26,877 nt of DNA from Candidatus Heimdallarchaeota archaeon (GCA_030668825.1 DAOVET010000033.1:1-26877), one strand, 5' to 3'; shown: positions 8,266-26,877, counted from the first letter of the stretch. Notes: generated from the letters alone by a model not told the origin. A program made the numbers and translations.

Positions 8266-10962
8266 TTAATAATACCTCAAAACTGAATTTTCATCTAATT
8301 CTATTTTACATATAGGGCATATTTCTTTCACTTTCATCCATTCAATTAAGTGATTCTTGTGGAAGACATGACCACAGTCTACTATCTGAACTAGCTCATC
8401 ATTTGCAACCATATACTTCATACAAATTTCACATTTTCTAGTTTTCTTCCCACAGTTTAAACAGATAAGAGGACCGCCGTCTTCAACAATCTCAAGTAGA
8501 GCATCACAGAAGTAGCAGAACAACTCTTCATCTAGTTTCTTAATGTTCTTAACAGTGTCTTTTTCTACAATGATTTTTACCTCTTTCCTAGGATTTTCTA
8601 GTAGTTTACTCTGCTTAATTTTTCTGAGGACTACTCCTTGATTTGTGAAAAACTCAGCAAGTGAAGGTTCGCTTTGTTCTTTTCTCTGCTTTCCAAATCT
8701 CATATATCTCATAAACAGCATTAAAAATAATCCCGAAATAATAATTGACCATGGAAATAGCTTTCCTGCATAATTCTTATTCAGATAGATGAATAGAAGC
8801 CATCCAGACAAAAAGAAGCCATATTTTGTAAGCCTAAAAATAGACTTGTTTATACTATGGAGATCCTTGTAAAAGGTATTTGTAGAAGTGTTGAGCACTA
8901 CTGAAAACCAAAAGAAAGTAGAAGCAAAGAGTATTGTTGTAAAAGCATTGAACGAGATTTTACCCAAGATAACAAACTCAAAATCAGTATTATCACTGTT
9001 AGCTATTGAAACTAATCTCTCAAGAACTAGCCAGAATCCCACGTTTTTTAGGATTATGAAAACAACAGTAGCTCCTAACAGAATTTTTCTCAAGTTACCT
9101 AAAATACTGAAATTGAAGAACCGCTCTGTTTTAACATATCCTCCATTGAAATGAAGTTCGTATTCTTCGTCATCAAGTTTTACTTGAGCATTCCTGTTTG
9201 TTCCTTTGTTTTTCTTGTCTAAATGTCTTACTAGAACAATTAATGCTATTGCATCTAGAAGGAAACTAATACTCATCAGAGTTGTTATTGAAGGCTTGAA
9301 AGGTTTTGAGTCACTGTTTAGGTTAGGAAGTTCAAAGGGGTTCGTCGATGTGACAACTTCCTCAGAAGTTGCTGCAAGTATGTAACTAAGCTCCTCTATT
9401 GTAACTACTAAGCCTTCTCCGTAAATTAATAATAGTATTTCTATTTCTTGATAGCCTTGGTTTAATTCTATGATTACTCCATCATTGATTGTTTGTTTAT
9501 CATTAAATAATTGAAAGAAAACCTGATTATTGTCTATCTTAATTCTCAAAATGAATTGATTAACAGGTGAGTAAAACTCATTGTATAGTTTTATGGAGAA
9601 AGAAAGATTGAAAGTGGCTGAATCAGAATCAAGATAGAAACCATCTGTGAATTTAACTGTTAAAGCTCCTATAGTTGGTGTTTCATAATTTTTTGAAGAG
9701 ACTACGGTTTTTTCTAGTGTATCGTTCTCATCAAATGTTGGAATGGGTTCTATCTCAATCTTACAAGTATTGAGTAAGTAGAAAATACCCTCTCTCGTTG
9801 CTGTTCCATAGACACGAAAAGCAATTTCAGAAAAATAATTCACAGTGTAAGTGTCAATGAAAATTCCATTAGGGTAATTAAACAGATCTGTTCCTGAATA
9901 GATGACTTCAGAATCTGATAATAACTCATAATCTAAGGTAGGTAAGATTACTGAGCCCACATAACCATAATATAACGAGACGTGTAAATTCTGCTCATTA
10001 ATGTTAGAAAAGGGTTTTAGTAATGATAAATTAAAGGGGTAATTTACTGAAGGATTATTACAAGAAAACCAATCAAAACAATCTTCTGGGATTTGGTCTT
10101 CGAGAAATTGAAGCTTTCCTGATAGAGCTATATTAGTAAACCATATCTCATCCATGCACATGTTAACACAGAAATAAAAACGAATTATGTTCACCCCCTG
10201 CTCTAATGGGATAGATAAAGAGACAATAATAGATGGATTATCAGAAAAGCTTTCAATGATGATGATCGTGTTGTTAATTTTTACTTCTATATATTGAGAG
10301 AAGGCATAGAAGGAGTTTGCTGTAAAAGAAAGAGTGACATTTAATGTGGTGGTGTCATTAACAGAATAAACAGCTGTTTCAATATAATCGCTTCTGACAC
10401 CTGAAATATATCCATAATAACCTATTTGACCAGGATTACAAGGAAGGGGCGTTGAGTACTTATCAAGAATAGGAATTGGAATTGTGTCAATTGTTGATTT
10501 ACTGAATATTTGAATAGTACCAGAATTAATGGAATAAGATGTTTTACCTTCACATGAAACAGTAATAATCATCGAACCGATGAAGTTTTGAGGATAGGAA
10601 AATGATTTAGAAAGAGAGTGTTCATAAGAATCCTGATAAATACGGTTAATGTTAATTTCTACTTCAGTAGTGTCCAAATACAAAACAATTGTTAATCCAT
10701 TTGAGTCAGTCCTATCACCAGAAAAGAGAAAGAATATAGTTAAACTATTATATTCTAGAAGTTCAAGATTGACTAGTTCAAAAGTAAAATTTTGTTTTAC
10801 AGAAGTTGAGTCATAAGAATACAGTATATTTTCATCTATGATAGTAGTGTCATAAGTAGAAAGGAGGTTAGGAACATTATTTTGATTTCTTGCAATACCT
10901 AAAGAACTGGTAAAACAAAAGAGTGTTAACACCAATAACATGTTTCTAGTTGTGTTTCTCAT
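8266..10962 (-). CDS. secreted multi-pass membrane protein with C-terminal zinc ribbon + RING-H2-like domain (putative E3 ligase)
   Basis: Signal peptide (MLLVLTLFCFTSSLGIA), ~530-aa beta-rich N/S/T-rich ectodomain, about five hydrophobic segments, then CYFC..CLNC and CEIC-x15-CGHVFHKNH-LIEW...CPIC. I prefer ATG 10962 because the track start at 10989 overlaps the TATA box. Confidence 0.85.
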   Translation of the reverse strand: MRNTTRNMLLVLTLFCFTSSLGIARNQNNVPNLLSTYDTTIIDENILYSYDSTSVKQNFTFELVNLELLEYNSLTIFFLFSGDRTDSNGLTIVLYLDTTEVEININRIYQDSYEHSLSKSFSYPQNFIGSMIITVSCEGKTSYSINSGTIQIFSKSTIDTIPIPILDKYSTPLPCNPGQIGYYGYISGVRSDYIETAVYSVNDTTTLNVTLSFTANSFYAFSQYIEVKINNTIIIIESFSDNPSIIVSLSIPLEQGVNIIRFYFCVNMCMDEIWFTNIALSGKLQFLEDQIPEDCFDWFSCNNPSVNYPFNLSLLKPFSNINEQNLHVSLYYGYVGSVILPTLDYELLSDSEVIYSGTDLFNYPNGIFIDTYTVNYFSEIAFRVYGTATREGIFYLLNTCKIEIEPIPTFDENDTLEKTVVSSKNYETPTIGALTVKFTDGFYLDSDSATFNLSFSIKLYNEFYSPVNQFILRIKIDNNQVFFQLFNDKQTINDGVIIELNQGYQEIEILLLIYGEGLVVTIEELSYILAATSEEVVTSTNPFELPNLNSDSKPFKPSITTLMSISFLLDAIALIVLVRHLDKKNKGTNRNAQVKLDDEEYELHFNGGYVKTERFFNFSILGNLRKILLGATVVFIILKNVGFWLVLERLVSIANSDNTDFEFVILGKISFNAFTTILFASTFFWFSVVLNTSTNTFYKDLHSINKSIFRLTKYGFFLSGWLLFIYLNKNYAGKLFPWSIIISGLFLMLFMRYMRFGKQRKEQSEPSLAEFFTNQGVVLRKIKQSKLLENPRKEVKIIVEKDTVKNIKKLDEELFCYFCDALLEIVEDGGPLICLNCGKKTRKCEICMKYMVANDELVQIVDCGHVFHKNHLIEWMKVKEICPICKIELDENSVLRYY

Positions 10963-10984
10963 TATCTGTATTATAATCTGAAAA

Positions 10985-11001
10985 TTCATTTATAAACTGA
11001 G
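10985..11001 (-). promoter_or_regulatory. second copy of the 17-bp TATA-containing element, upstream of the RING gene
   Basis: Identical to 8104-8120. The TATA ends ~27 nt before ATG 10962, which fits a leaderless transcript. Confidence 0.6.
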
Positions 11002-19930: not shown

Positions 19931-20005
19931 TGGTGCACGCGCCGGGATTCGAACCCGGGTTCCAGCCGTGGCAGGGCTGAGTCCTACCAACTAGACTACA
20001 CGAGC
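19931..20005 (-). tRNA. tRNA-Gly(GCC), CCA encoded
   Basis: GCTCGTG-TAGTCTAGTTGGTAGGACT-CAGCC-CTGCCAC-GGCTG-GAAC-CCGGG-TTCGAAT-CCCGG-CGCGTGC-A-CCA. Confidence 0.93.
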
Positions 20006-20097
20006 ACGAGTAAGGTTGTATTTTAGAAGCAATATTTATCTTTTCTGTTTGATGATGATTAAAAACACACATTAAAAAAGAAGTATTAAAAAAGATT

Positions 20098-20171
20098 TGG
20101 TACGCTAACCGGGATTTGAACCCGGGTTCCCGCCTTGGAAGGGCGAAGTCCTGCCACTAGACTATTAGCGT
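20098..20171 (-). tRNA. tRNA-Gly(TCC), CCA encoded
   Basis: ACGCTAA-TAGTCTAGTGGCAGGACT-TCGCC-CTTCCAA-GGCGG-GAAC-CCGGG-TTCAAAT-CCCGG-TTAGCGT-A-CCA. Confidence 0.93.
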
Positions 20172-20396: not shown

Positions 20397-21653
20397 TTAG
20401 TTGCCCCATTTTTCAAGTGCTTTGGCGAGTTCTACATGCTCTTTTGCATATTCTTCCAAGGAAATGCCCTTGAGTGTAGCATCTAGAGCTTGTCTCATTG
20501 CCATTGCTCCCTTTCTTGTACCATCAGGATGTCCATGAATTCCTCCTCCTGCCTGAATTATGATATTATCACCACCATGTTTCACTAAGTTAGGTACTTT
20601 CGCAGGATACAATCCCCCTGATGCAACTGGAAAAGTTGGTTTAAATTCATACATTGGGTTAAGCATAGCATCTTTAATTTGAAGTTCAAGATCTAATTCT
20701 GTGTCCATTTTGCCTTGGCCATACGAGCCTATATGCAATTGATCACCACCGACCATTCGGACTATTTTAGCAATTGGTAACATGGAAATACCATGTTTCT
20801 TATTACGAGTGAAAGCTGCATGCATAGTTCTATGAACATGAATTGGTACCTTTACACTTGGATCAGCTGCCATTTGAGCTAATTCTTGAAATCCAGTAAG
20901 AATAACATCTATCATCAAACATTTAGCCCCATTATCGATAGCTTCCTCTATCCTTCTCCACATGACATCATGTTTTGCAGTTACATTCACTGCGTGGATT
21001 ACAGTTCTTCCTGTTTCTTCTTTCACTTGATCCATCTTTTCTAATACTGCAACGGTTCTATCTGCTATTGGACAGAAAGGTTGGCTACTTAGATTTTCAT
21101 CATCTTTGATAAAATCTACACCACCAATAGCAGCTTCATAAGCTACTTGGGCCCATTCTTTTGCAGTTAATCCCATTTTTGGTTTAACTATTGTTCCTAA
21201 ATGAGGACGATTTGGAAATTCACCTTTGTCAGTACCTAAGATTTTACGTACTCCTTGTACTCCAAATTTTGGTCCTGGAAAGTTTTCTGCAATACTTCTG
21301 GGAAATTCTACATCAACCCATCGTATATTGCGAAGTGCTCCTAAACCAAATAGGTTACCAGCTAACATGGACAAAATACTTGTAATTCCTGCTTCTGTAT
21401 CAAAAGTTTCTGTCTTAAATCCAATTAATACTTCTCCACTCTGATATCCTTCGTGGTCACCAATAACCTTGGTATCCAGAATCTCAGCTCTTAATCTAGG
21501 AATAATGTCTATCTCTGTGTTTTCAATTGTAGTAAGTTTGGTCCATGTACCAACGCTTTCTTCGTCCGCGATATCCTCCCCAGCTTGTTCCACGGACTTT
21601 ACGTGCTCTACATAATAACGAGCAACTAGTAATTCTTTATATTTATCTTTCAT
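20397..21653 (-). CDS. rbcL: form III-type ribulose-1,5-bisphosphate carboxylase large subunit
   Basis: EESVGTW, AGNLFG, GTIVKPKMG, DFIKDDEN, IHVHRTMH, DQLHIG..GKM (loop-6 Lys), VASGGL, QAGGGIHGHP: the catalytic set appears complete. The neighbouring isomerase fits the pentose-bisphosphate pathway. ATG 21653 is supported by the duplicated start. Confidence 0.92.
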   Translation of the reverse strand: MKDKYKELLVARYYVEHVKSVEQAGEDIADEESVGTWTKLTTIENTEIDIIPRLRAEILDTKVIGDHEGYQSGEVLIGFKTETFDTEAGITSILSMLAGNLFGLGALRNIRWVDVEFPRSIAENFPGPKFGVQGVRKILGTDKGEFPNRPHLGTIVKPKMGLTAKEWAQVAYEAAIGGVDFIKDDENLSSQPFCPIADRTVAVLEKMDQVKEETGRTVIHAVNVTAKHDVMWRRIEEAIDNGAKCLMIDVILTGFQELAQMAADPSVKVPIHVHRTMHAAFTRNKKHGISMLPIAKIVRMVGGDQLHIGSYGQGKMDTELDLELQIKDAMLNPMYEFKPTFPVASGGLYPAKVPNLVKHGGDNIIIQAGGGIHGHPDGTRKGAMAMRQALDATLKGISLEEYAKEHVELAKALEKWGN

Positions 21654-21655
21654 AT
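21610..21655. repeat. 46-bp perfect direct repeat, copy 1 (rbcL start)
   Basis: acataataacgagcaactagtaattctttatatttatctttcatat, identical to 26462-26507. Confidence 0.97.
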
Positions 21656-21783
21656 AAAACACTCATTCTGTACCATTTTAAACAATATGATTTGTCTAGT
21701 TTTCGAATAATAAAATGAAAGTAATATCTGGTTTAAAGGTTTAATAAAGAAAAAGGAATGGAAAGCTAAACAAAACACTATTA

Positions 21784-23529
21784 TTAATATTGTCTTTGTA
21801 TTAATTGAGTATTAGTCATATAACTAAGCAATCTTGCTTTTTCAAGGTCTATTATACAGTTTGCGTTTTCATCATTTATTGAATTATCATTTTCTGTAAG
21901 TGAGCTAAGGACTTTTCTTACAGAATTATCAATTGATTGGAAGTAGTATTTACGTTTCTTAGTACCAATATTCATTAATGAACACCGCACTCTAATGACT
22001 GTGTCATAGAATGCAAATTTTACAAGATTAAATTTATTGAAAAGAGATATATTGTATTTTTCTACTTCAGCCCATATGTAGTCATATTGCATTTTAGAAA
22101 CCTTTTGCTCTATTGATAGTTCTTTGTTTTGATTTACCAAAGGCATAGATTCCTTGCTAAAAAAGATGTGCTGGAAACTAGTAAGAATACCGAAAACAGA
22201 AGGATTGGTCTTTTTATTTATTTTATTATAATCCAAATAATTCGATATGGTGTTTATATGCAACTCACTTTCAAGAAAAACATCATGATTAAGGTACCAA
22301 GTTATGAATTTGTTCCATTCTTGTCTAGCTATACTTTGAAAATTAATGGAAATTCTATATATCCAAGGATCGTCTCTTGAGGTATCTTTTTCAGATTTTA
22401 AATGTTCAAAGGAATGAGTATAACGACCATAATTTGTTATACAATCATATAATTTGAATGCGAATAAAGATAACAAAGTAATAATTTGATCATCAATACT
22501 AACTCCTCCGTAATTGTTCAAATTATAAAGTCTAGTGCGTTTGTCTCTCTTTCCTTCATAATTATTAAAATATTCATTAATCAAGCTATGAATATATTTT
22601 ACATTAGCAAAATTGTTAACCTCCGAAGAAGAATCATCGTATTTCTTCCCATTTAATCGTGCGTTCATTAGTACTAGTACTTCCTTCAGTTCAGGATTAC
22701 GAAGAAATAGTTGCTTAACTCCTTTATTTGTAGCTAATTGTTTTCTGCTTGCTCCTAGAATTTCTATTAATCTTACATCAAAATTATCATCAAGAATATA
22801 TGATGAAGTTTCTTTCTTATTCAAGGAATTTGTTAACGTTCTAAACATTCCATCAAGATTGTACTTGGATAATGTAATGTAATTATAATGCTCTTGCTCA
22901 TCAAAACGAATAGATACAGGTAAATATGGAGCTAAGATTTTAGTGCTTTTTAACGGATTAATAACTCCTTTTGATACATTATTTGATACTTTCTTGTGCT
23001 TATTTAACTCAATTACGGAGTTTATTGCATCAATTTTAATACTATCGTATAATTCCTTATTCTGGTATGCTAATAAATCCTGAAGATCAACAAAAATATC
23101 CTTTTTCTCATCATAAATTCCTAGAGCATTTGCTCCAGAAAAGGAATTAATAATTTTATTATTTGTTTTTTGAGTACTAAGAAATTCTACCAAATTACAC
23201 AAATCATACTTGTTGTCTTCTGAATTTAGATTGTGCTGAATCTCTATGTATATTTTTGTTCTTCTGTCCCTATAATTGTAGGACAATGGTAGAACACAGG
23301 GTATTATCTCTTCTTGCGTTGCTTTAGAATAATATACTTTAATAAAGTAAATAAATTGTATTGAGGTATACAAAACTAATCCAGAAGTCTTTAAATTAAC
23401 ATTAGAGTTATACCTGTCTCTGTATTTCTCGTATTCTGATTGCTCAAACAATCCTGCTTTATTTAAGATTTCTGAGTTTCCAATAAACAACTCTAGATTT
23501 CTATCTAGATGACTGTAGTCACATCCCAA
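21784..23529 (-). CDS. hypothetical protein, possibly 5'-truncated
   Basis: 581-aa, very AT-rich ORF. It has only a TTG start, and the frame stays open ~28 codons further upstream without an ATG. Confidence 0.6.
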   Translation of the reverse strand: MGCDYSHLDRNLELFIGNSEILNKAGLFEQSEYEKYRDRYNSNVNLKTSGLVLYTSIQFIYFIKVYYSKATQEEIIPCVLPLSYNYRDRRTKIYIEIQHNLNSEDNKYDLCNLVEFLSTQKTNNKIINSFSGANALGIYDEKKDIFVDLQDLLAYQNKELYDSIKIDAINSVIELNKHKKVSNNVSKGVINPLKSTKILAPYLPVSIRFDEQEHYNYITLSKYNLDGMFRTLTNSLNKKETSSYILDDNFDVRLIEILGASRKQLATNKGVKQLFLRNPELKEVLVLMNARLNGKKYDDSSSEVNNFANVKYIHSLINEYFNNYEGKRDKRTRLYNLNNYGGVSIDDQIITLLSLFAFKLYDCITNYGRYTHSFEHLKSEKDTSRDDPWIYRISINFQSIARQEWNKFITWYLNHDVFLESELHINTISNYLDYNKINKKTNPSVFGILTSFQHIFFSKESMPLVNQNKELSIEQKVSKMQYDYIWAEVEKYNISLFNKFNLVKFAFYDTVIRVRCSLMNIGTKKRKYYFQSIDNSVRKVLSSLTENDNSINDENANCIIDLEKARLLSYMTNTQLIQRQY

Positions 23530-23630
23530 AAATAACAGTTTTTTGTCTTTATTTGAAAAAGTATTAGAAGAGAAAATATCGTCATCTACTTTGTATTTCG
23601 TAGTTTTGGATATTTAGTATTCTGGATATT

Positions 23631-24308
23631 TTACTTAGATACTTCTTTTTGATTATACAGTGATTTTCTCCTTATGTTACTTGCAACCATTAATGAAAAT
23701 AACAAAAAGAATACTATTGGGGTCATGAATGAGGTACTCGTTACTTCAGTAGGATTATAATCAAAATCCATATAAGTTATGTTCAACACACCAGAAGTCA
23801 CAGTGATTATAGTCATTAAAACTTCTGCTTTAGTAGTATTTAACCACTGATAAGCAGTATTGATTGGTCTCCAAAGGGTGTAATTGCCATTTGGAAGTTG
23901 ATCTAAATCCGTTTGATTAATATAGAACACAACATAACTATATTCAACTGTAATACCCGGTTGATAAGTATATTTCATAACTGTTGAGTGTACATATCCT
24001 AATCGTTCAAATTCCAATGATTGGTTCTCAAGTGATGCATTAATGAAAACCTTTGGAATATAATCAGATATTTCAGTGACTGTTTGATTTTCAGCTTCTT
24101 TATTTAAAATTTCTACTGTTACATTTATATCAAACAAAGTGGTATTGGGTTCACTAAAATATGAATTGTGAAGTACAGAAACTTCAGAAATTTCTGAGAT
24201 TCTAGAAGCAATAGTTGATTCTTCCCCTTCTACTACCATCGTATATGGGAGTAAAAGTGTAAGCACTATTAGCGATATAGTCAAGAATTTACCTATTTTT
24301 TTATTCAT
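23631..24308 (-). CDS. secreted, C-terminally membrane-anchored surface (glyco)protein
   Basis: Signal peptide, several NxS/T sequons (NTT, NVT, NQT, NAS, NYT, NIT), and a C-terminal TM followed by RRK. Confidence 0.8.
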   Translation of the reverse strand: MNKKIGKFLTISLIVLTLLLPYTMVVEGEESTIASRISEISEVSVLHNSYFSEPNTTLFDINVTVEILNKEAENQTVTEISDYIPKVFINASLENQSLEFERLGYVHSTVMKYTYQPGITVEYSYVVFYINQTDLDQLPNGNYTLWRPINTAYQWLNTTKAEVLMTIITVTSGVLNITYMDFDYNPTEVTSTSFMTPIVFFLLFSLMVASNIRRKSLYNQKEVSK

Positions 24309-24383
24309 ATTATCCTTCCTCCTTACTCTCTAATTCTAACAACTGATTTTTAATTATACTAGTACAATAACACATAAAACCAT

Positions 24384-24720
24384 TTAGGTTGCTAATCTCC
24401 CCTCCGTATATGCTCTCCCATAAGCTAAGTAAGCATCAACGTATCCATATCCCATTTCTTGGTCAAAAGTACTTCTTGAACTTGCATATTGAAGGATATC
24501 TATTACCTTTTGCACAGTAGGATCTGTATAAGAACCTAACCCATTATGGTATCCAGTTATAATTAATGCAATTATACCCGCTAAGTAGGGTGTACTAATG
24601 CTAGTTCCTGCCATATATACCCAAGTTCCTCTGTAAACGCCAAGGATAATATCTCTATAAGGTTGTGTTAAAACAGGTACTCCATTTCCGGGTGCAAGCC
24701 AATATATCTCAACGAGCAAG
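24384..24720 (-). pseudogene. C-terminal fragment of an S8 (subtilisin-like) serine protease
   Basis: LAPG...YMAGTSISTPYLAGIIALI...MGYGYVDA corresponds to the GTSMATP catalytic-Ser region. The Asp (DTG) and His (HGT) motifs are absent. Confidence 0.75.
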
Positions 24721-25178
24721 CAATTAGTAGAACAAGAAATAGAATTCCTAGCAAAGGTCTTTTTAGAAACAAGGTATGATATTGATACAAATATCCGTGT
24801 AATAATAGGTTCACCAATATATGTCTCTGTTATTTGAACTATCACTTCTATTTCAGAAAGATTGAATTGTGCAATGTCACAGTTCTGTTGTTTCGGAATG
24901 CATAGTATCACTAATAGTAAACTTTTATTCCGTGTGTGCTTAATCTTCTAATTGTGTAACGATGGCTTTGCAAAAAAATCAAAAACATCAAGTTATCATC
25001 TTACCTTTAATAACTCTTCAAATTCTCAATTACATTGTAATAATCTATTCATTTCTTCCTTTTTCCTCTAAGTTTTAGTGGTTTGGTCAAATCACAAATG
25101 TATAATGCTGATAGTTAGATATCAAGCAAGTTTTGAAATAATAGTATAATTTTTAATAATATACTATTCGTTCATTAT

Positions 25179-26399
25179 ATGTATAATTGTAAAGGGTGGG
25201 AATATAGCAACGAGGACTATCTTGGTAGTGGAGGACAAGGAGTAGTTTATTCTGCAAGAAAAGTTTTAGATGATAAAGAGTATGCGATCAAAATAGTTGA
25301 TTTGAGAAAGTATAAAAGAAGAAAAGATAAAGAAAAAGTAAAAAAAAGATTTGAAAAGGAAGAATATCTTTTAGATTTAAAACCTCATAAAAATTTTATT
25401 CAATATGTAGATAAGGGAAAATGTACGGACGAGATTTATTATTTTGTTATGGAAAAAGCTGATACAAATCTATCAAAATATCTAAGTCAAAACAAGCTAT
25501 CTTTTGATGAAAAAATTAATCTCTTTCATCAAATATTGGATGGTGTAGAATCACTACATAATAATAATTCACCGATAATTCATAGAGACCTTAAACCAAC
25601 AAATACCCTCATGAAAGAAGGAATCCCCAAAATTGCAGATTTTGGAATAGTTTTTATTAAGGATGAAACTGCACGTTTTACTACTACCAATGAAAGGGTA
25701 GGCTCAAAAATCTATTCGCATCCAGATACAGAACTTGGTAGGCTTGATGAAGTTTCCTGTAAGTTGGATATTTACTCTTTGGGGAAAATACTATATTTCT
25801 TACTATCAGATGGAACGGATCTTCATAGAGTTTATTATGACAAAGAAGAATACTATCTTCCTTACATTCACCATGATCCTCGCTATACGGTCTTCGACAA
25901 CCTCTTTTTATGGACAATAAATTTGCGAATGAAAGAAATAATTGGTTCTATTGAAGAGGTTAGAATTGCTTTTGATGAAGCATGTGAAAACTTTCATAGT
26001 TTTCCTAATCGTGTAGAGGAAACAATAAAACTAGGTCATGCTCTTTTCAGAAAATGTAAACATAAAGAAGGGACAAAATGTCTTGAAAAAGCTGTTTCTC
26101 TAGAACCCAACAATCCTTATGCTCTCTATCATTATGGTAGATGGTTTGAGATAGAAAAAGTTACAGAAGAAGATACAGAAAAAAGAATTAAATACTATGA
26201 AAAGATTTTGCAGAATGAGAATTTTACAGATTGGTATATTCTCAGTATTATTGGTAAGGAATTTTTACAAAGTAAAGATAAGAATCAGGGACAACAAATT
26301 ATTGAAAAGGCTAAGAAATTAAAAGCAAGAGTTTATCCAGCTATAACTATAGCTACAGAAGAAGAAATTAGGAAATATTATAAAGTGTCATTTAGATAG
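25179..26399 (+). CDS. Hanks-type Ser/Thr protein kinase with C-terminal TPR-like repeats
   Basis: LGSGGQGVVY, YAIK, HRDLKPTN, IADFG, DIYSLG, and C-terminal LEKAVSLEPNNPYALYHYG. Confidence 0.92.
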   Translation: MYNCKGWEYSNEDYLGSGGQGVVYSARKVLDDKEYAIKIVDLRKYKRRKDKEKVKKRFEKEEYLLDLKPHKNFIQYVDKGKCTDEIYYFVMEKADTNLSKYLSQNKLSFDEKINLFHQILDGVESLHNNNSPIIHRDLKPTNTLMKEGIPKIADFGIVFIKDETARFTTTNERVGSKIYSHPDTELGRLDEVSCKLDIYSLGKILYFLLSDGTDLHRVYYDKEEYYLPYIHHDPRYTVFDNLFLWTINLRMKEIIGSIEEVRIAFDEACENFHSFPNRVEETIKLGHALFRKCKHKEGTKCLEKAVSLEPNNPYALYHYGRWFEIEKVTEEDTEKRIKYYEKILQNENFTDWYILSIIGKEFLQSKDKNQGQQIIEKAKKLKARVYPAITIATEEEIRKYYKVSFR

Positions 26400-26418
26400 T
26401 ATCATTGAAGTAGTTTTT

Positions 26419-26505
26419 TCAGTTCTCCTCTGCGGCTACATCAACACTTTTTACATGTTCCACATAATAACGAGCAACTAGTAATTCTTTATATTTATCT
26501 TTCAT
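26419..26505 (-). pseudogene. 28-codon 5' stub of rbcL
   Basis: Translates as MKDKYKELLVARYYVEHVKSVDVAAEEN*. The first 21 aa are identical to RbcL. GGTGA SD at 26511-26515. Confidence 0.9.
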
Positions 26506-26507
26506 AT
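26462..26507. repeat. 46-bp perfect direct repeat, copy 2
   Basis: Identical to 21610-21655. Confidence 0.97.
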
Positions 26508-26534
26508 TTGTCACCAAAATTAATCATAAATGTT

Positions 26535-26877
26535 CTATGTATCCTCACTAATTATCATAAAAGGATACTTTTCTTTAATTATCATATAGACAATTGAAGG
26601 TGAAAAAACTCCTGATTCAGTTATAATTCCATCTATCAGATCATGAGAAACTGTTTCAAAAGCAGGATTCAGAAAATCCAATCCTTCAGGAGGGTTTTTC
26701 CAAATTTCTGTAGGTTCTCTCATCTCTATTTTTGTTAACTTTCCTATACTTGTTTCAGGATCATATTTTAAGAGATTTATTGCTGTATAGAATGGTATAT
26801 CCATTTCTTTAGCTGCAAGAGCTAATAGACGTGTTCCTATTTTATTAATGACTGTGCCTTGACTAGTAATGGCGTCT
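26535..26877 (-). CDS. ribose-1,5-bisphosphate isomerase / eIF2B-family protein (5' end outside the window)
   Basis: The frame is open to the window edge: DAITSQGTVINKIGTRLLALAAKEMDIPFY...IEMREPTEI...NPAFE...DLIDGIITESG. Adjacency to RuBisCO favours R15P isomerase. Confidence 0.85.
   Translation of the reverse strand, partial: DAITSQGTVINKIGTRLLALAAKEMDIPFYTAINLLKYDPETSIGKLTKIEMREPTEIWKNPPEGLDFLNPAFETVSHDLIDGIITESGVFSPSIVYMIIKEKYPFMIISEDT

What the first reader, a model, noticed from the sequence alone, without database searches (positions are those of the whole stretch)
21610..26507. RuBisCO gene used as an integration site: island splits the R15P isomerase-rbcL operon and regenerates the rbcL start
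Seen: a perfect 46-bp direct repeat (21610-21655 and 26462-26507) covers the first 14+ codons of rbcL. The upstream copy sits 29 nt after the isomerase stop, has a GGTGA SD and dies after 28 codons. The downstream copy starts the intact gene. Recombination between the repeats would remove 4852 bp and restore isomerase-SD-rbcL. Known: integrative elements duplicate the part of the target gene they disrupt, most often tRNA 3' ends. R15P isomerase and form III RuBisCO act consecutively in the archaeal AMP/nucleoside pathway. Inference: a carbon-metabolism gene 5' end serves as an att site or cassette hotspot. I do not know of this being described, and excision could act as a switch on rbcL expression.
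Basis: partly seen in the sequence, partly recalled or inferred. Interest (0 to 1): 0.8.

Follow-up and report, generated by a model that had tools for sequence, protein, structure and literature searches.

The report
Decayed island splitting archaeal RuBisCO operon
In this Heimdall-group (Asgard) archaeon a 4.8-kb patchwork of foreign and broken genes sits between the RuBisCO gene and its partner isomerase gene, flanked by a duplicated RuBisCO gene start. Related species carry related inserts, so this looks like a recombination hotspot and not a working mobile element.

Summary
A perfect 46-nt direct repeat (21610-21655 / 26462-26507) carries the rbcL start. The upstream copy lies 29 nt after the isomerase stop, has a GGTGA, and stops after 28 codons.

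- **Ancestral state:** isomerase-rbcL adjacency is seen in 17 of 21 readable genus genomes and in 6 of 6 further relatives.
- **Inserts elsewhere:** four other species also carry an insert here. All share the rbcL-proximal arm: a TATA-like box 22-24 nt (75 nt in G002) before the rbcL ATG, and in three of them also the 3' end of a giant orphan gene. The rest of the cargo differs. G020 also has a stub, cut at the same codon.
- **No sign of activity:** no recombinase is present. Two of the four island genes here are fragments. The flanks are allele mosaics drawn from different species.

My best reading is one old insertion that carried an rbcL 5' copy and its own promoter. It was later passed between species and reshuffled by homologous recombination. 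It uncouples rbcL from the isomerase operon.

Active excision, or a switch on rbcL, is not shown. The k=31 contigs I could lay cannot resolve a 46-nt repeat.

Integration into a gene's 5' end is already known (SXT/R391 in prfC). The isomerase-side junction lies in the last 370 nt of a strain-mixed MAG contig, and no read data confirm it.

The parts
26535..26876 (-). 3' part (113 codons) of the ribose-1,5-bisphosphate isomerase-like gene, cut by the contig end. 26571-26877 is a diverged allele, about 86% identical to the nearest species. 26508-26570 is identical to the native allele of G009.
   Evidence: Pfam IF-2B 4.6e-22; nucleotide identities; mismatch map
26506..26534 (-). 29-nt spacer with GGTGA (26511-26515), the operon's Shine-Dalgarno for rbcL. 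It is identical to the spacer of empty-site relatives G018, G012, G009 and G013.
26419..26505 (-). rbcL stub: ATG, 28 codons, TGA
   Evidence: (tblastn aa 1-27, 85%)
26462..26507 (.). Repeat copy 2 (46 nt, perfect), inside the stub
   Evidence: it appears as a separate 46-nt unitig at roughly double depth in runs X5 and X6
26426..26461 (-). Distal 36 nt of the stub, of a foreign allele type. It matches G001 rbcL at 34/36 and the G020 stub at 33/36, against 22/35 for this contig's own rbcL.
25179..26399 (+). Cargo: Ser/Thr protein kinase with TPR repeats, convergent with the stub. It resembles kinases of anti-phage systems.
   Evidence: Pfam Pkinase 3.1e-32; PADLOC PD-T4-6 1.7e-36; no paralogue in the bin
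24384..24911 (-). Cargo: C-terminal fragment of an S8 (subtilase) peptidase. Only residues 93-156 match the last 60 positions of the Pfam model.
   Evidence: intact 389-398-aa homologues in G013 and G020
23631..24308 (-). Cargo: 225-aa predicted membrane protein with no family, paralogues on contigs C20 and C1
23568..24703 (.). 1136-nt patch, 92.9% identical to G001 contig C1. rbcL, ftsZ and the isomerase gene of that species are only 75-78% identical to this contig. This is a recently imported segment of an S8 / membrane-protein / giant-gene cluster.
21784..23598 (-). Cargo: last ~600 codons of a giant orphan gene (homologues of at least 2283 aa), truncated at its 5' side
   Evidence: no Pfam, PHROG, PADLOC or Atlas match
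21656..21783 (-). rbcL-proximal arm: intergenic stretch with a TATA-like TTTAAAA (21676-21682) that ends 22 nt before the rbcL ATG, and no Shine-Dalgarno. Inferred to be a promoter for a leaderless rbcL mRNA.
21610..21655 (.). Repeat copy 1 (46 nt, perfect), at the start of the intact rbcL
20397..21653 (-). Intact form III RuBisCO large-subunit gene (418 codons)
19931..20171 (-). Two tRNA-Gly genes (GCC, UCC) between rbcL and ftsZ. They give context for the right flank.

Best explanation
This is a degenerate variable island without an integrase, lying between the R15P isomerase gene and form III rbcL of a Heimdall-group archaeon.

Inferred origin: one old single-crossover (Campbell-type) insertion of DNA that carried the first ~28 codons of rbcL behind its own TATA promoter. 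The crossover left a 28-codon stub behind the operon's ribosome-binding site. It put the intact gene behind the island's promoter.

Inferred later history: the stub-island-promoter arrangement has passed between species of the genus by homologous recombination in the flanking isomerase and rbcL genes. The cargo has been eroded and swapped, partly by recombination with multi-copy S8-peptidase / membrane-protein / giant-gene clusters. The perfect 46 nt is the end of one such recombination tract: a 109-nt patch of native sequence (isomerase tail, SD, repeat) abutting foreign stub sequence.

Inferred consequence: rbcL is no longer co-expressed with the isomerase. It is transcribed as a leaderless mRNA from the island end. 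Deletion between the repeats would restore the operon, but nothing shows this is regulated.
For: Shown:
- The repeat and stub exist as described.
- Isomerase-rbcL adjacency (about 29-40 nt) is seen in 17 of 21 readable genomes of the genus. In 6 of 6 further relatives the isomerase gene also lies directly upstream (36-196 nt).
- The site is occupied in G000, G002, G008, G011 and G020, each with different cargo.
- G020 repeats the architecture isomerase-SD-stub-cargo-rbcL. Its stub breaks at codon 27. Its two contigs overlap by exactly 55 nt.
- The arm next to rbcL is shared. The last codons of the giant gene (..TNTQLIQRQY*) are present in C4, G002, G011 and G020. A TTTAAAW box ends 22-24 nt before the ATG in C4, G020, G008 and G011. 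No such box occurs in native isomerase-SD-rbcL junctions.
- No tyrosine recombinase lies on any island contig, and no recombinase family is found in island proteins.
- Cargo is decayed.
- Ancestry is mosaic. Stub distal part: 34/36 to G001 and 33/36 to the G020 stub, against 22/35 to its own rbcL. Isomerase 3' end: 86% to the nearest species, where ftsZ, orf377 and the rbcL 5' end are 94-96%. A 109-nt patch is identical to G009. A 1136-nt patch is 93% identical to G001. rbcL codons 17-33 (EQAGEDIADEE) are shared only with G013 and G002, which also carry pieces of the same giant-gene subfamily beside rbcL.
- Island-bearing genomes are scattered on the rbcL tree.
- The island interior is one 4866-nt contig with a single differing letter in runs from two studies. 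The stretch, or more than half of it, is held by 15 runs (20 rows holding any part come from 11 studies).
Against: - No read-level proof of the isomerase-side junction of this contig. It lies in the last 370 nt of a contig from a strain-mixed bin.
- The founding event is inferred only. A site-specific recombinase acting in trans, or one since lost, would leave the same picture.
- The 5' boundary of identity sits 2 nt before the ATG and the stubs of G000 and G020 share a truncation point. A defined attP would also produce this.
- G008 and G011 have no stub, and their left boundary lies about 16 nt after the isomerase stop. So either there was more than one event or later deletions must be assumed.
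- The promoter and the leaderless transcript are inferred from a motif and its spacing. No RNA data were available.
Confidence: 0.55

Rival explanations
1. Active site-specific cassette or integrative element. On this reading the first ~46-82 nt of rbcL are a true attachment site. The element carries an rbcL-mimicking attP with its own promoter and is moved by a recombinase encoded elsewhere, or by an unrecognised one such as the giant orphan protein. Excision then switches rbcL between operon and stand-alone expression.
For: - A perfect core is followed by an abrupt drop to 22/36 identity.
- The stubs of G000 and G020 share a truncation codon, and the stub arm is near-identical in these two distant species.
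- The promoter arm is conserved in five genomes with different cargo.
- Island-bearing genomes have a patchy distribution on the tree.
- G013 looks like the excision product.
- The k=31 contig graph fits a circle plus an empty site as well as it fits the integrated form.
Against: - There is no recombinase in any of the five islands, and no PF00589 match anywhere in G000.
- Two of the four genes are truncated fragments.
- In G020 the two copies are imperfect in the region that is perfect here.
- G008 and G011 lack the stub.
- No free element with the rbcL 5' core was found in IMG/VR.
- The giant gene family is absent from G008's island and truncated here.
Confidence: 0.12
2. Decayed tandem duplication. 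An ancestor had two full rbcL copies with the giant-gene cluster between them. The upstream copy was later deleted down to 28 codons. The 46-nt identity comes from gene conversion or an allele-exchange tract.
For: - The giant-gene cluster is tied to rbcL pieces at more than one place. G013 has an N-terminal giant-gene fragment 2.4 kb downstream of rbcL. G008 contig C24 has a 193-nt internal rbcL fragment (aa 324-388, 85% nucleotide identity, one stop) about 170 nt upstream of a giant gene.
- The stub differs from the intact gene mostly at synonymous sites, as expected for an old paralogue or allele.
Against: - No other rbcL or isomerase remnant lies inside this island by sensitive blastn and tblastn.
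- No genome among the 47 of the order has two long rbcL copies. Only G000 and G020 have an extra 5' core.
- The stub's distal part matches another species' allele at 34/36. That fits import better than in-place decay.
Confidence: 0.15
3. Assembly artefact. The last 370 nt of the contig (SD plus isomerase) would belong to a co-occurring relative with an empty site, and were joined to the island through the shared repeat.
For: - The bin is a strain mixture. At least 15 contig pairs overlap at their ends by 300-725 nt at 92-98% identity.
- A second, empty-site version of the locus (C59) is in the same bin.
- The isomerase piece on C4 is of foreign allele type, and the 109 nt next to it are identical to native empty-site alleles.
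Against: - The contig set shows a 141-nt exact end overlap (C4/C124). That implies a k-mer far longer than the 46-nt repeat, or even the 109-nt shared patch.
- G020, assembled elsewhere, has isomerase-SD-stub-cargo on one contig.
- The stub itself (repeat plus foreign distal part) lies inside the island contig in 4 of 4 laid runs, so a second rbcL start is real whatever precedes it.
Confidence: 0.1

Closest known systems
SXT/R391 integrative conjugative elements in the 5' end of prfC
   Same: An insertion at the 5' end of a conserved protein-coding gene, flanked by near-identical element and chromosome sequences (passages read in PMC2791158). My recollection, not checked here, is that the element also supplies a new promoter and first codons for prfC.
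   Different: SXT encodes its own tyrosine integrase and Xis, excises as a circle and transfers by conjugation. Here there is no recombinase, no transfer genes, a 4.8-kb decayed cargo, and an archaeal host.
Variable islands or hotspots flanked by core genes and exchanged by homologous recombination (general bacterial concept, recalled; no paper read here)
   Same: The flanking core genes stay the same while cargo differs between genomes. Defence-like and secreted-protein genes are present. Flanking alleles are mosaic. No self-mobility genes are present.
   Different: The insert lies inside an operon junction and is bounded by a duplicated gene start. The island's end carries a replacement promoter for the downstream gene.
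Aloposons of Ca. Heimdallarchaeum (Wu et al. 2022, PMC8813620; passages read)
   Same: The host group is the same. A giant orphan gene has the insertion boundary just downstream of it.
   Different: Aloposons carry tandem genes of 3000-6000 aa, four conserved upstream genes including a ParA/MinD ATPase, and sit at tRNA genes. Here there is one truncated giant gene (homologues of at least 2283 aa), none of the other genes were seen, and the boundary is the rbcL start.
Archaeal integrated elements with tyrosine integrases, such as Yucahu-i of Atabeyarchaeia (PMC11529989; passages read)
   Same: An integrated element in an Asgard genome, bounded by a short repeated motif.
   Different: Those elements encode an integrase, coexist as circles shown by reads, and have an 11-bp motif. 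None of this is shown here.

Membership tests
Site-specific integrative element (tyrosine-recombinase type) | Element-encoded integrase or recombinase | tested here: not met
   No recombinase family in island proteins of G000, G002, G008 or G020. A six-frame PF00589 and PF16795 search of G000, G002, G008, G011 and G020 gave no match on any island contig, and none at all in G000.
Site-specific integrative element (tyrosine-recombinase type) | Identical core repeated at both ends (attL/attR) | tested here: met
   A 46-nt perfect direct repeat. In G020 the corresponding copies are imperfect.
Site-specific integrative element (tyrosine-recombinase type) | Empty target site in relatives | tested here: met
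   17 of 21 readable genus genomes, 6 of 6 further relatives, and contig C59 of the same bin.
Site-specific integrative element (tyrosine-recombinase type) | Excised circular form and restored junction | tested here: inconclusive
   Only k=31 contigs could be laid. The 46-nt repeat is longer than k, so integrated and excised forms give the same graph. The one joint seen (run X1, depth 7.35) comes from a different, C59-like allele.
Core-gene-flanked variable island exchanged by homologous recombination | Same flanks, different cargo in different genomes | tested here: met
   Five genomes carry five different cargoes. Only the isomerase gene, the rbcL 5' end, the promoter arm and (G000/G002) the giant gene are shared.
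Core-gene-flanked variable island exchanged by homologous recombination | Flanking and internal segments with conflicting ancestry | tested here: met
   No formal breakpoint test was run.
Aloposon (Wu et al. 2022) | Tandem giant genes of 3000-6000 aa | tested here: not met
   There is one giant-gene remnant of ~600 codons here. The longest close homologue is 2283 aa.
Aloposon (Wu et al. 2022) | Integration at a tRNA gene downstream of the giant genes | tested here: not met
   The boundary downstream of the giant gene is the rbcL start. The nearest tRNA genes lie beyond rbcL.
Aloposon (Wu et al. 2022) | Sequence homology of the giant proteins to Otus/Ephialtes, and the four conserved upstream genes | not tested
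   The aloposon proteins were not fetched. Only weak N-terminal-domain matches to the two complete Heimdallarchaeum genomes were seen.
Form III RuBisCO with R15P isomerase (archaeal AMP/nucleoside pathway) | Best family matches and conserved gene pairing | tested here: met
   Best NCBIfam hits are type III RuBisCO and ribose 1,5-bisphosphate isomerase, both below the equivalog cut-offs. Pfam domains were found. The gene pairing is conserved across the family. Enzyme activity cannot be tested here.

The most novel reading that the evidence does not exclude
The start of rbcL is a true attachment site for a family of Heimdallarchaeal cassettes that carry no integrase of their own. These cassettes carry an rbcL-mimicking arm and a leaderless promoter. 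They are moved by a host or trans-acting recombinase, or by the giant-gene cluster itself, in the way aloposons sit downstream of giant genes. They flip rbcL between operon-coupled and stand-alone expression within populations. The occupied (C4) and empty (C59) versions in one bin would be the two states.
Probability: 0.12. Interest if true: 0.7.

Novelty: new variant of a known kind. Interest (0 to 1): 0.4.

Why it matters
Heimdall-group archaea are the closest known relatives of eukaryotes, and how their genomes gain and shuffle genes is an active question. This locus gives a concrete, repeatedly sampled example. A conserved two-gene metabolic operon (R15P isomerase and form III RuBisCO) is split in five species by related islands. 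These islands bring a replacement promoter and a changing load of defence-like, secreted and giant orphan genes.

If the homologous-recombination reading is right, it shows how such islands spread between species without any mobility genes, leaving mosaic core genes behind. If the active-cassette reading is right, it would be a new kind of attachment site and a population-level switch on nucleoside-salvage carbon metabolism.

Either way, it is a caution for metabolic reconstructions that assume isomerase and rbcL are co-expressed.

Tried and rejected
- **Read support for the isomerase-side junction.** Positions 26492-26877 had no cover in runs X5, X6 and X10. In X1 there was only a depth-3 contig (26753-26877, 1 differing letter) and a 90%-alike contig of another allele (26449-26601). 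Long contigs carrying a native isomerase allele (~86% alike) would fail the 90% filter that I set. I draw no conclusion from this.
- **Precise excision.** It cannot be seen in k=31 contigs because the repeat is 46 nt.
- **JGI metagenome contigs.** An exact 38-nt stub/island junction pattern found nothing. A search with the kinase protein found no relative.
- **IMG/VR.** The exact 46-nt repeat and a degenerate rbcL 5' core motif found nothing.
- **Function of the giant protein.** No Pfam, PHROG, PADLOC or ESM-Atlas match. The big protein search returned only itself and one 2283-aa JGI protein. I made no structure prediction, because a two-sequence alignment would not give a usable model.
- **Further rbcL or isomerase remnants inside the island.** Nothing significant by word-7 blastn or word-2 tblastn.
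- **Continuation of the C59 version.** No second rbcL 3' part and no alpha/beta hydrolase or DinB-like gene (the genes next to rbcL in the nearest species) in the bin. Whether C59 and C4 are two haplotypes of one population, two loci or two organisms stays open. I favour haplotypes from the contig-end geometry.
- **Literature.** One full-text search combining RuBisCO, integration site, integrase, archaea and bisphosphate isomerase returned 10 papers. None is about this by title or abstract.
- **Sigma-70 promoter and terminator scan.** Not run, because archaeal promoters are not covered.
Full report
**1. The observation**

The repeat is real. One search reports a direct repeat 21574-21655 / 26426-26507 (82 nt, 83%). 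Its last 46 nt (21610-21655 / 26462-26507) are identical, 4852 nt apart. Given the window's base composition, about 1e-17 such repeats are expected by chance.

All genes concerned lie on the minus strand. The order is:
- the 3' 113 codons of an IF-2B-family isomerase (26876-26535), cut by the contig end;
- a 29-nt spacer with GGTGA;
- an ATG at 26505 followed by 28 codons and a TGA (the stub);
- 4.8 kb of other genes;
- the same 46 nt again, opening an intact 418-codon rbcL (21653-20397).

The rbcL product and the full isomerase from contig C59 have type III RuBisCO and ribose 1,5-bisphosphate isomerase as their best NCBIfam matches. Both score below the equivalog cut-offs (Pfam).

Beyond the 46 nt, homology continues for 36 nt at 22/36. 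Of codons 15-28, 12 differ, 7 of them synonymously. The stub is therefore a piece of another rbcL allele and not a fresh copy of this one.

**2. What the island holds**

Between the repeats lie four genes:
- a Ser/Thr kinase with TPR repeats (25179-26399, +). It matches kinase models of anti-phage systems, for example PD-T4-6 at 1.7e-36;
- the C-terminal fragment of an S8 peptidase (24384-24911, -);
- a 225-aa membrane protein with no family (23631-24308, -);
- a 581-codon ORF (21784-23529, -) with no family match.

The 581-codon ORF is the last ~600 codons of a giant orphan gene. It matches residues 822-1425 of a partial gene of at least 1448 codons in G002, and residues 1690-2283 of a 2283-aa JGI protein.

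The N-terminal ~900 residues of that giant protein form a large multi-copy family in these genomes. S8 peptidase, membrane protein and giant gene form a recurring cluster elsewhere, in G001, G005 and G010.

A 1136-nt patch (23568-24703) is 92.9% identical to such a cluster in G001. G001's rbcL, ftsZ and isomerase gene are only 75-78% identical to this contig.

No recombinase is present in the island proteins. A six-frame search for PF00589 and PF16795 in G000, G002, G008, G011 and G020 found none on any island contig. The island is 29.8% G+C, against 33.4% for the rest of the contig.

**3. Assembly context**

The window is the whole contig C4 of a 138-contig MAG (90.6% complete, 4.67% contaminated). 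Records of same-genus relatives are titled Candidatus Heimdallarchaeota.

The same bin holds contig C59, which reads flavodoxin-like gene, full isomerase, SD, then rbcL codons 1-166 up to the contig end. This is an empty site. It is 86-87% identical at nucleotide level to the two C4 flanks, with no long identical run at the contig ends.

At least 15 other contig pairs in the bin overlap at their ends by 300-725 nt at 92-98% identity. This is the pattern of a strain mixture. The geometry is that C59's start overlaps C4's rbcL 5' end, and C4's end overlaps C59's isomerase 3' end. That fits two alternative versions of one locus, one occupied and one empty. This is an inference.

C4:1-141 is identical to the end of C124. 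That points to an assembler word far longer than the repeat.

The stretch 21400-26877, or more than half of it, is held by 15 public runs; the 20 of 24 listed rows that hold any part of it come from 11 studies of marine sediment and cold seeps.

In 4 of 4 runs laid (k=31 contigs), the island from 21626 to 26491 is covered by one contig (X1 and X5: 4866 nt, one differing letter) or two (X6, X10). The 46-nt repeat appears as a separate unitig at roughly double depth:
- X5: 77.8, against 36.8 and 50.1 for its neighbours;
- X6: 80.6, against 32 and 36.1.

The only joint found comes from a different, C59-like allele at depth 7.35 (32 of 33 inserted letters match C59, by eye).

These contigs confirm the island, the stub's foreign part and two copies of the repeat. 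They cannot tell an integrated island from a circle plus an empty site. They also say nothing usable about the isomerase-side junction (see Tried and rejected).

**4. Relatives**

The genus holds 24 other species genomes.
- The junction could be read in 21 of them. In 17, the isomerase gene ends about 29-40 nt before rbcL.
- G006 and G007 have neither gene.
- G024 has only the last 17 rbcL codons, at a contig edge.
- Six further relatives, including the two complete Heimdallarchaeum genomes, also have the isomerase gene directly upstream, at 36-196 nt.

Four species are uncoupled:
- **G020:** isomerase-SD-stub (27 codons), two membrane proteins, an intact S8 peptidase, then rbcL. The distance is 3776 nt, across two contigs that overlap by exactly 55 nt.
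- **G008:** a 2.2-kb insert with a 137-aa and a 419-aa ORF, and no stub.
- **G011:** isomerase and rbcL lie at contig ends. The flanks are 90-93% identical to those of G008.
- **G002:** the giant gene lies directly upstream of rbcL. No isomerase orthologue was found in an 89%-complete assembly.

An extra copy of the rbcL 5' core exists only in G000 and G020, out of 47 genomes of the order. Island-bearing genomes are scattered on an rbcL tree.

**5. Shared ends, variable middle**

The arm next to rbcL is homologous across the islands.
- The last codons of the giant gene (..TNTQLIQRQY*) survive in C4, G002, G011 and, as a relic behind stop codons, G020.
- A TTTAAAW box ends 22 nt (C4, G020) or 24 nt (G008, G011) before the ATG, with no Shine-Dalgarno.
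- The two Heimdallarchaeum genomes have a 190-nt isomerase-rbcL spacer and show the same 22-nt spacing.
- Native isomerase-SD-rbcL junctions have no such box. G002 has the box 75 nt upstream, plus an SD.

This spacing is what an archaeal TATA box in front of a leaderless mRNA would give. That follows from established knowledge of archaeal promoters and was not tested here.

On the other side, the stubs of G000 and G020 lose rbcL homology at the same place, codons 27-28. The 36 nt after the repeat in C4 match the G020 stub at 33/36 and G001's rbcL at 34/36. They match C4's own rbcL at only 22/35. G001 and G020 are sisters on the rbcL tree.

**6. Mosaic ancestry**

Against the nearest species (G018, G012, G009, G013), nucleotide identities are as follows:

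| Segment | Identity to nearest species |
|---|---|
| C4 ftsZ, orf377, rbcL 5' end | 94-96% |
| C59 isomerase and flavodoxin-like gene | 95-99% |
| C4 isomerase 3' end | 86% (best match G019, 89.9%) |
| C59 rbcL 5' end | 84-89% (best match G010, 91.6%) |

The C4 left junction is three-part:
- a foreign isomerase allele;
- then 109 nt identical to G009 (isomerase tail, SD and the 46-nt repeat);
- then the G001/G020-type stub end.

rbcL codons 17-33 of C4 (EQAGEDIADEE) are shared only with G013 and G002. Both carry pieces of the same giant-gene subfamily beside rbcL. G013 has no island, and its junction equals the product predicted for recombination between the C4 repeats, with 3 mismatches in 100 nt.

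**7. Mechanism**

The founding event is not observable. Topologically, a single crossover fits the data: a circular DNA carrying promoter arm, rbcL codons 1-28 and cargo recombines with the chromosomal rbcL start. That gives exactly SD-stub-cargo-promoter-rbcL.

Several observations point to one old event followed by spread and erosion through homologous recombination:
- the islands share arms;
- the cargo is decayed and exchanged;
- the flanks are mosaic;
- island-bearing genomes are patchily distributed on the tree;
- no recombinase is present.

On this reading the perfect 46 nt marks a tract end (confidence 0.55). The rivals are:
- an active cassette with a trans-acting recombinase (0.12);
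- a decayed tandem rbcL duplication (0.15). A 193-nt rbcL fragment next to a giant gene in G008:C24 shows that rbcL pieces do travel with these clusters;
- a chimeric contig end (0.10).

**8. Comparison with known systems**

Use of a gene's 5' end as an insertion site with near-identical flanking sequences is known for SXT/R391 elements in prfC (PMC2791158, passages). Those elements encode their own integrase.

Asgard integrated elements described so far carry integrases and sit at short motifs or tRNA genes (PMC11529989 and PMC8813620, passages). Aloposons share only the giant-gene flavour.

One full-text search found no paper on rbcL or the R15P isomerase operon as an insertion site. I file this as a new variant of a known kind, namely an island bounded by a partial duplication of the target gene. 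It has no integrase and lies in an Asgard carbon-metabolism operon.

**9. Limits**

- No raw reads, long reads or RNA data could be used.
- The isomerase-side junction of this contig is unverified.
- Recombination was inferred from identity patterns, not from a formal test.
- Supplementary files of the papers were closed.

Noticed in passing
window 8266-10989 (-): A 907-aa protein. Its first ~780 residues belong to the multi-copy N-terminal family of the giant proteins (32% identity to P0002). Its C-terminus is a RING finger (zf-RING_2, 1.7e-08), a eukaryote-like domain in an Asgard genome.
   Followed up: partly
window 19931-20171 and the rbcL-ftsZ spacer: Two tRNA-Gly genes (GCC, UCC) lie right after rbcL. 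The alpha/beta hydrolase and DinB-like genes that separate rbcL from these tRNAs in the nearest species are missing here, and from the whole bin. So the downstream side of rbcL is also variable.
   Followed up: partly
G013 contig C12 (L142 3429-7234): In this empty-site relative, a membrane-protein gene, an intact S8 peptidase gene and an N-terminal fragment of the same giant-gene subfamily (with one stop) are inserted downstream of rbcL, partly inverted.
   Followed up: partly
G008 contig C24 (L137 2387-2581): A 193-nt internal rbcL fragment (aa 324-388, 85% nucleotide identity to G008's own rbcL, one in-frame stop). It lies between a SIR2-like gene (SIR2_2, 1.8e-27) and the start of a giant gene, far from the rbcL locus.
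   Followed up: partly
whole bin G000: At least 15 contig pairs overlap at their ends by 300-725 nt at 92-98% identity, so the MAG is a composite of closely related strains. C4:1-141 is identical to the end of C124.
   Followed up: partly
whole bin G000: No Phage_integrase (PF00589) match anywhere in the bin, although all 14 control genomes give one. The bin may be incomplete, or its Xer-type recombinase may be divergent.
   Followed up: no
window 25179-26399 (+): The island's kinase-TPR protein has no paralogue in the bin. It scores best against anti-phage kinase models (PD-T4-6, MADS6), so it is a possible defence gene.
   Followed up: no
G008 island (L044 7009-7422): A 137-aa ORF with a YIDGFAG motif. 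By recollection only, this resembles methyltransferase-like partner proteins of mobile or defence loci. It has no Pfam, PHROG or PADLOC match.
   Followed up: no
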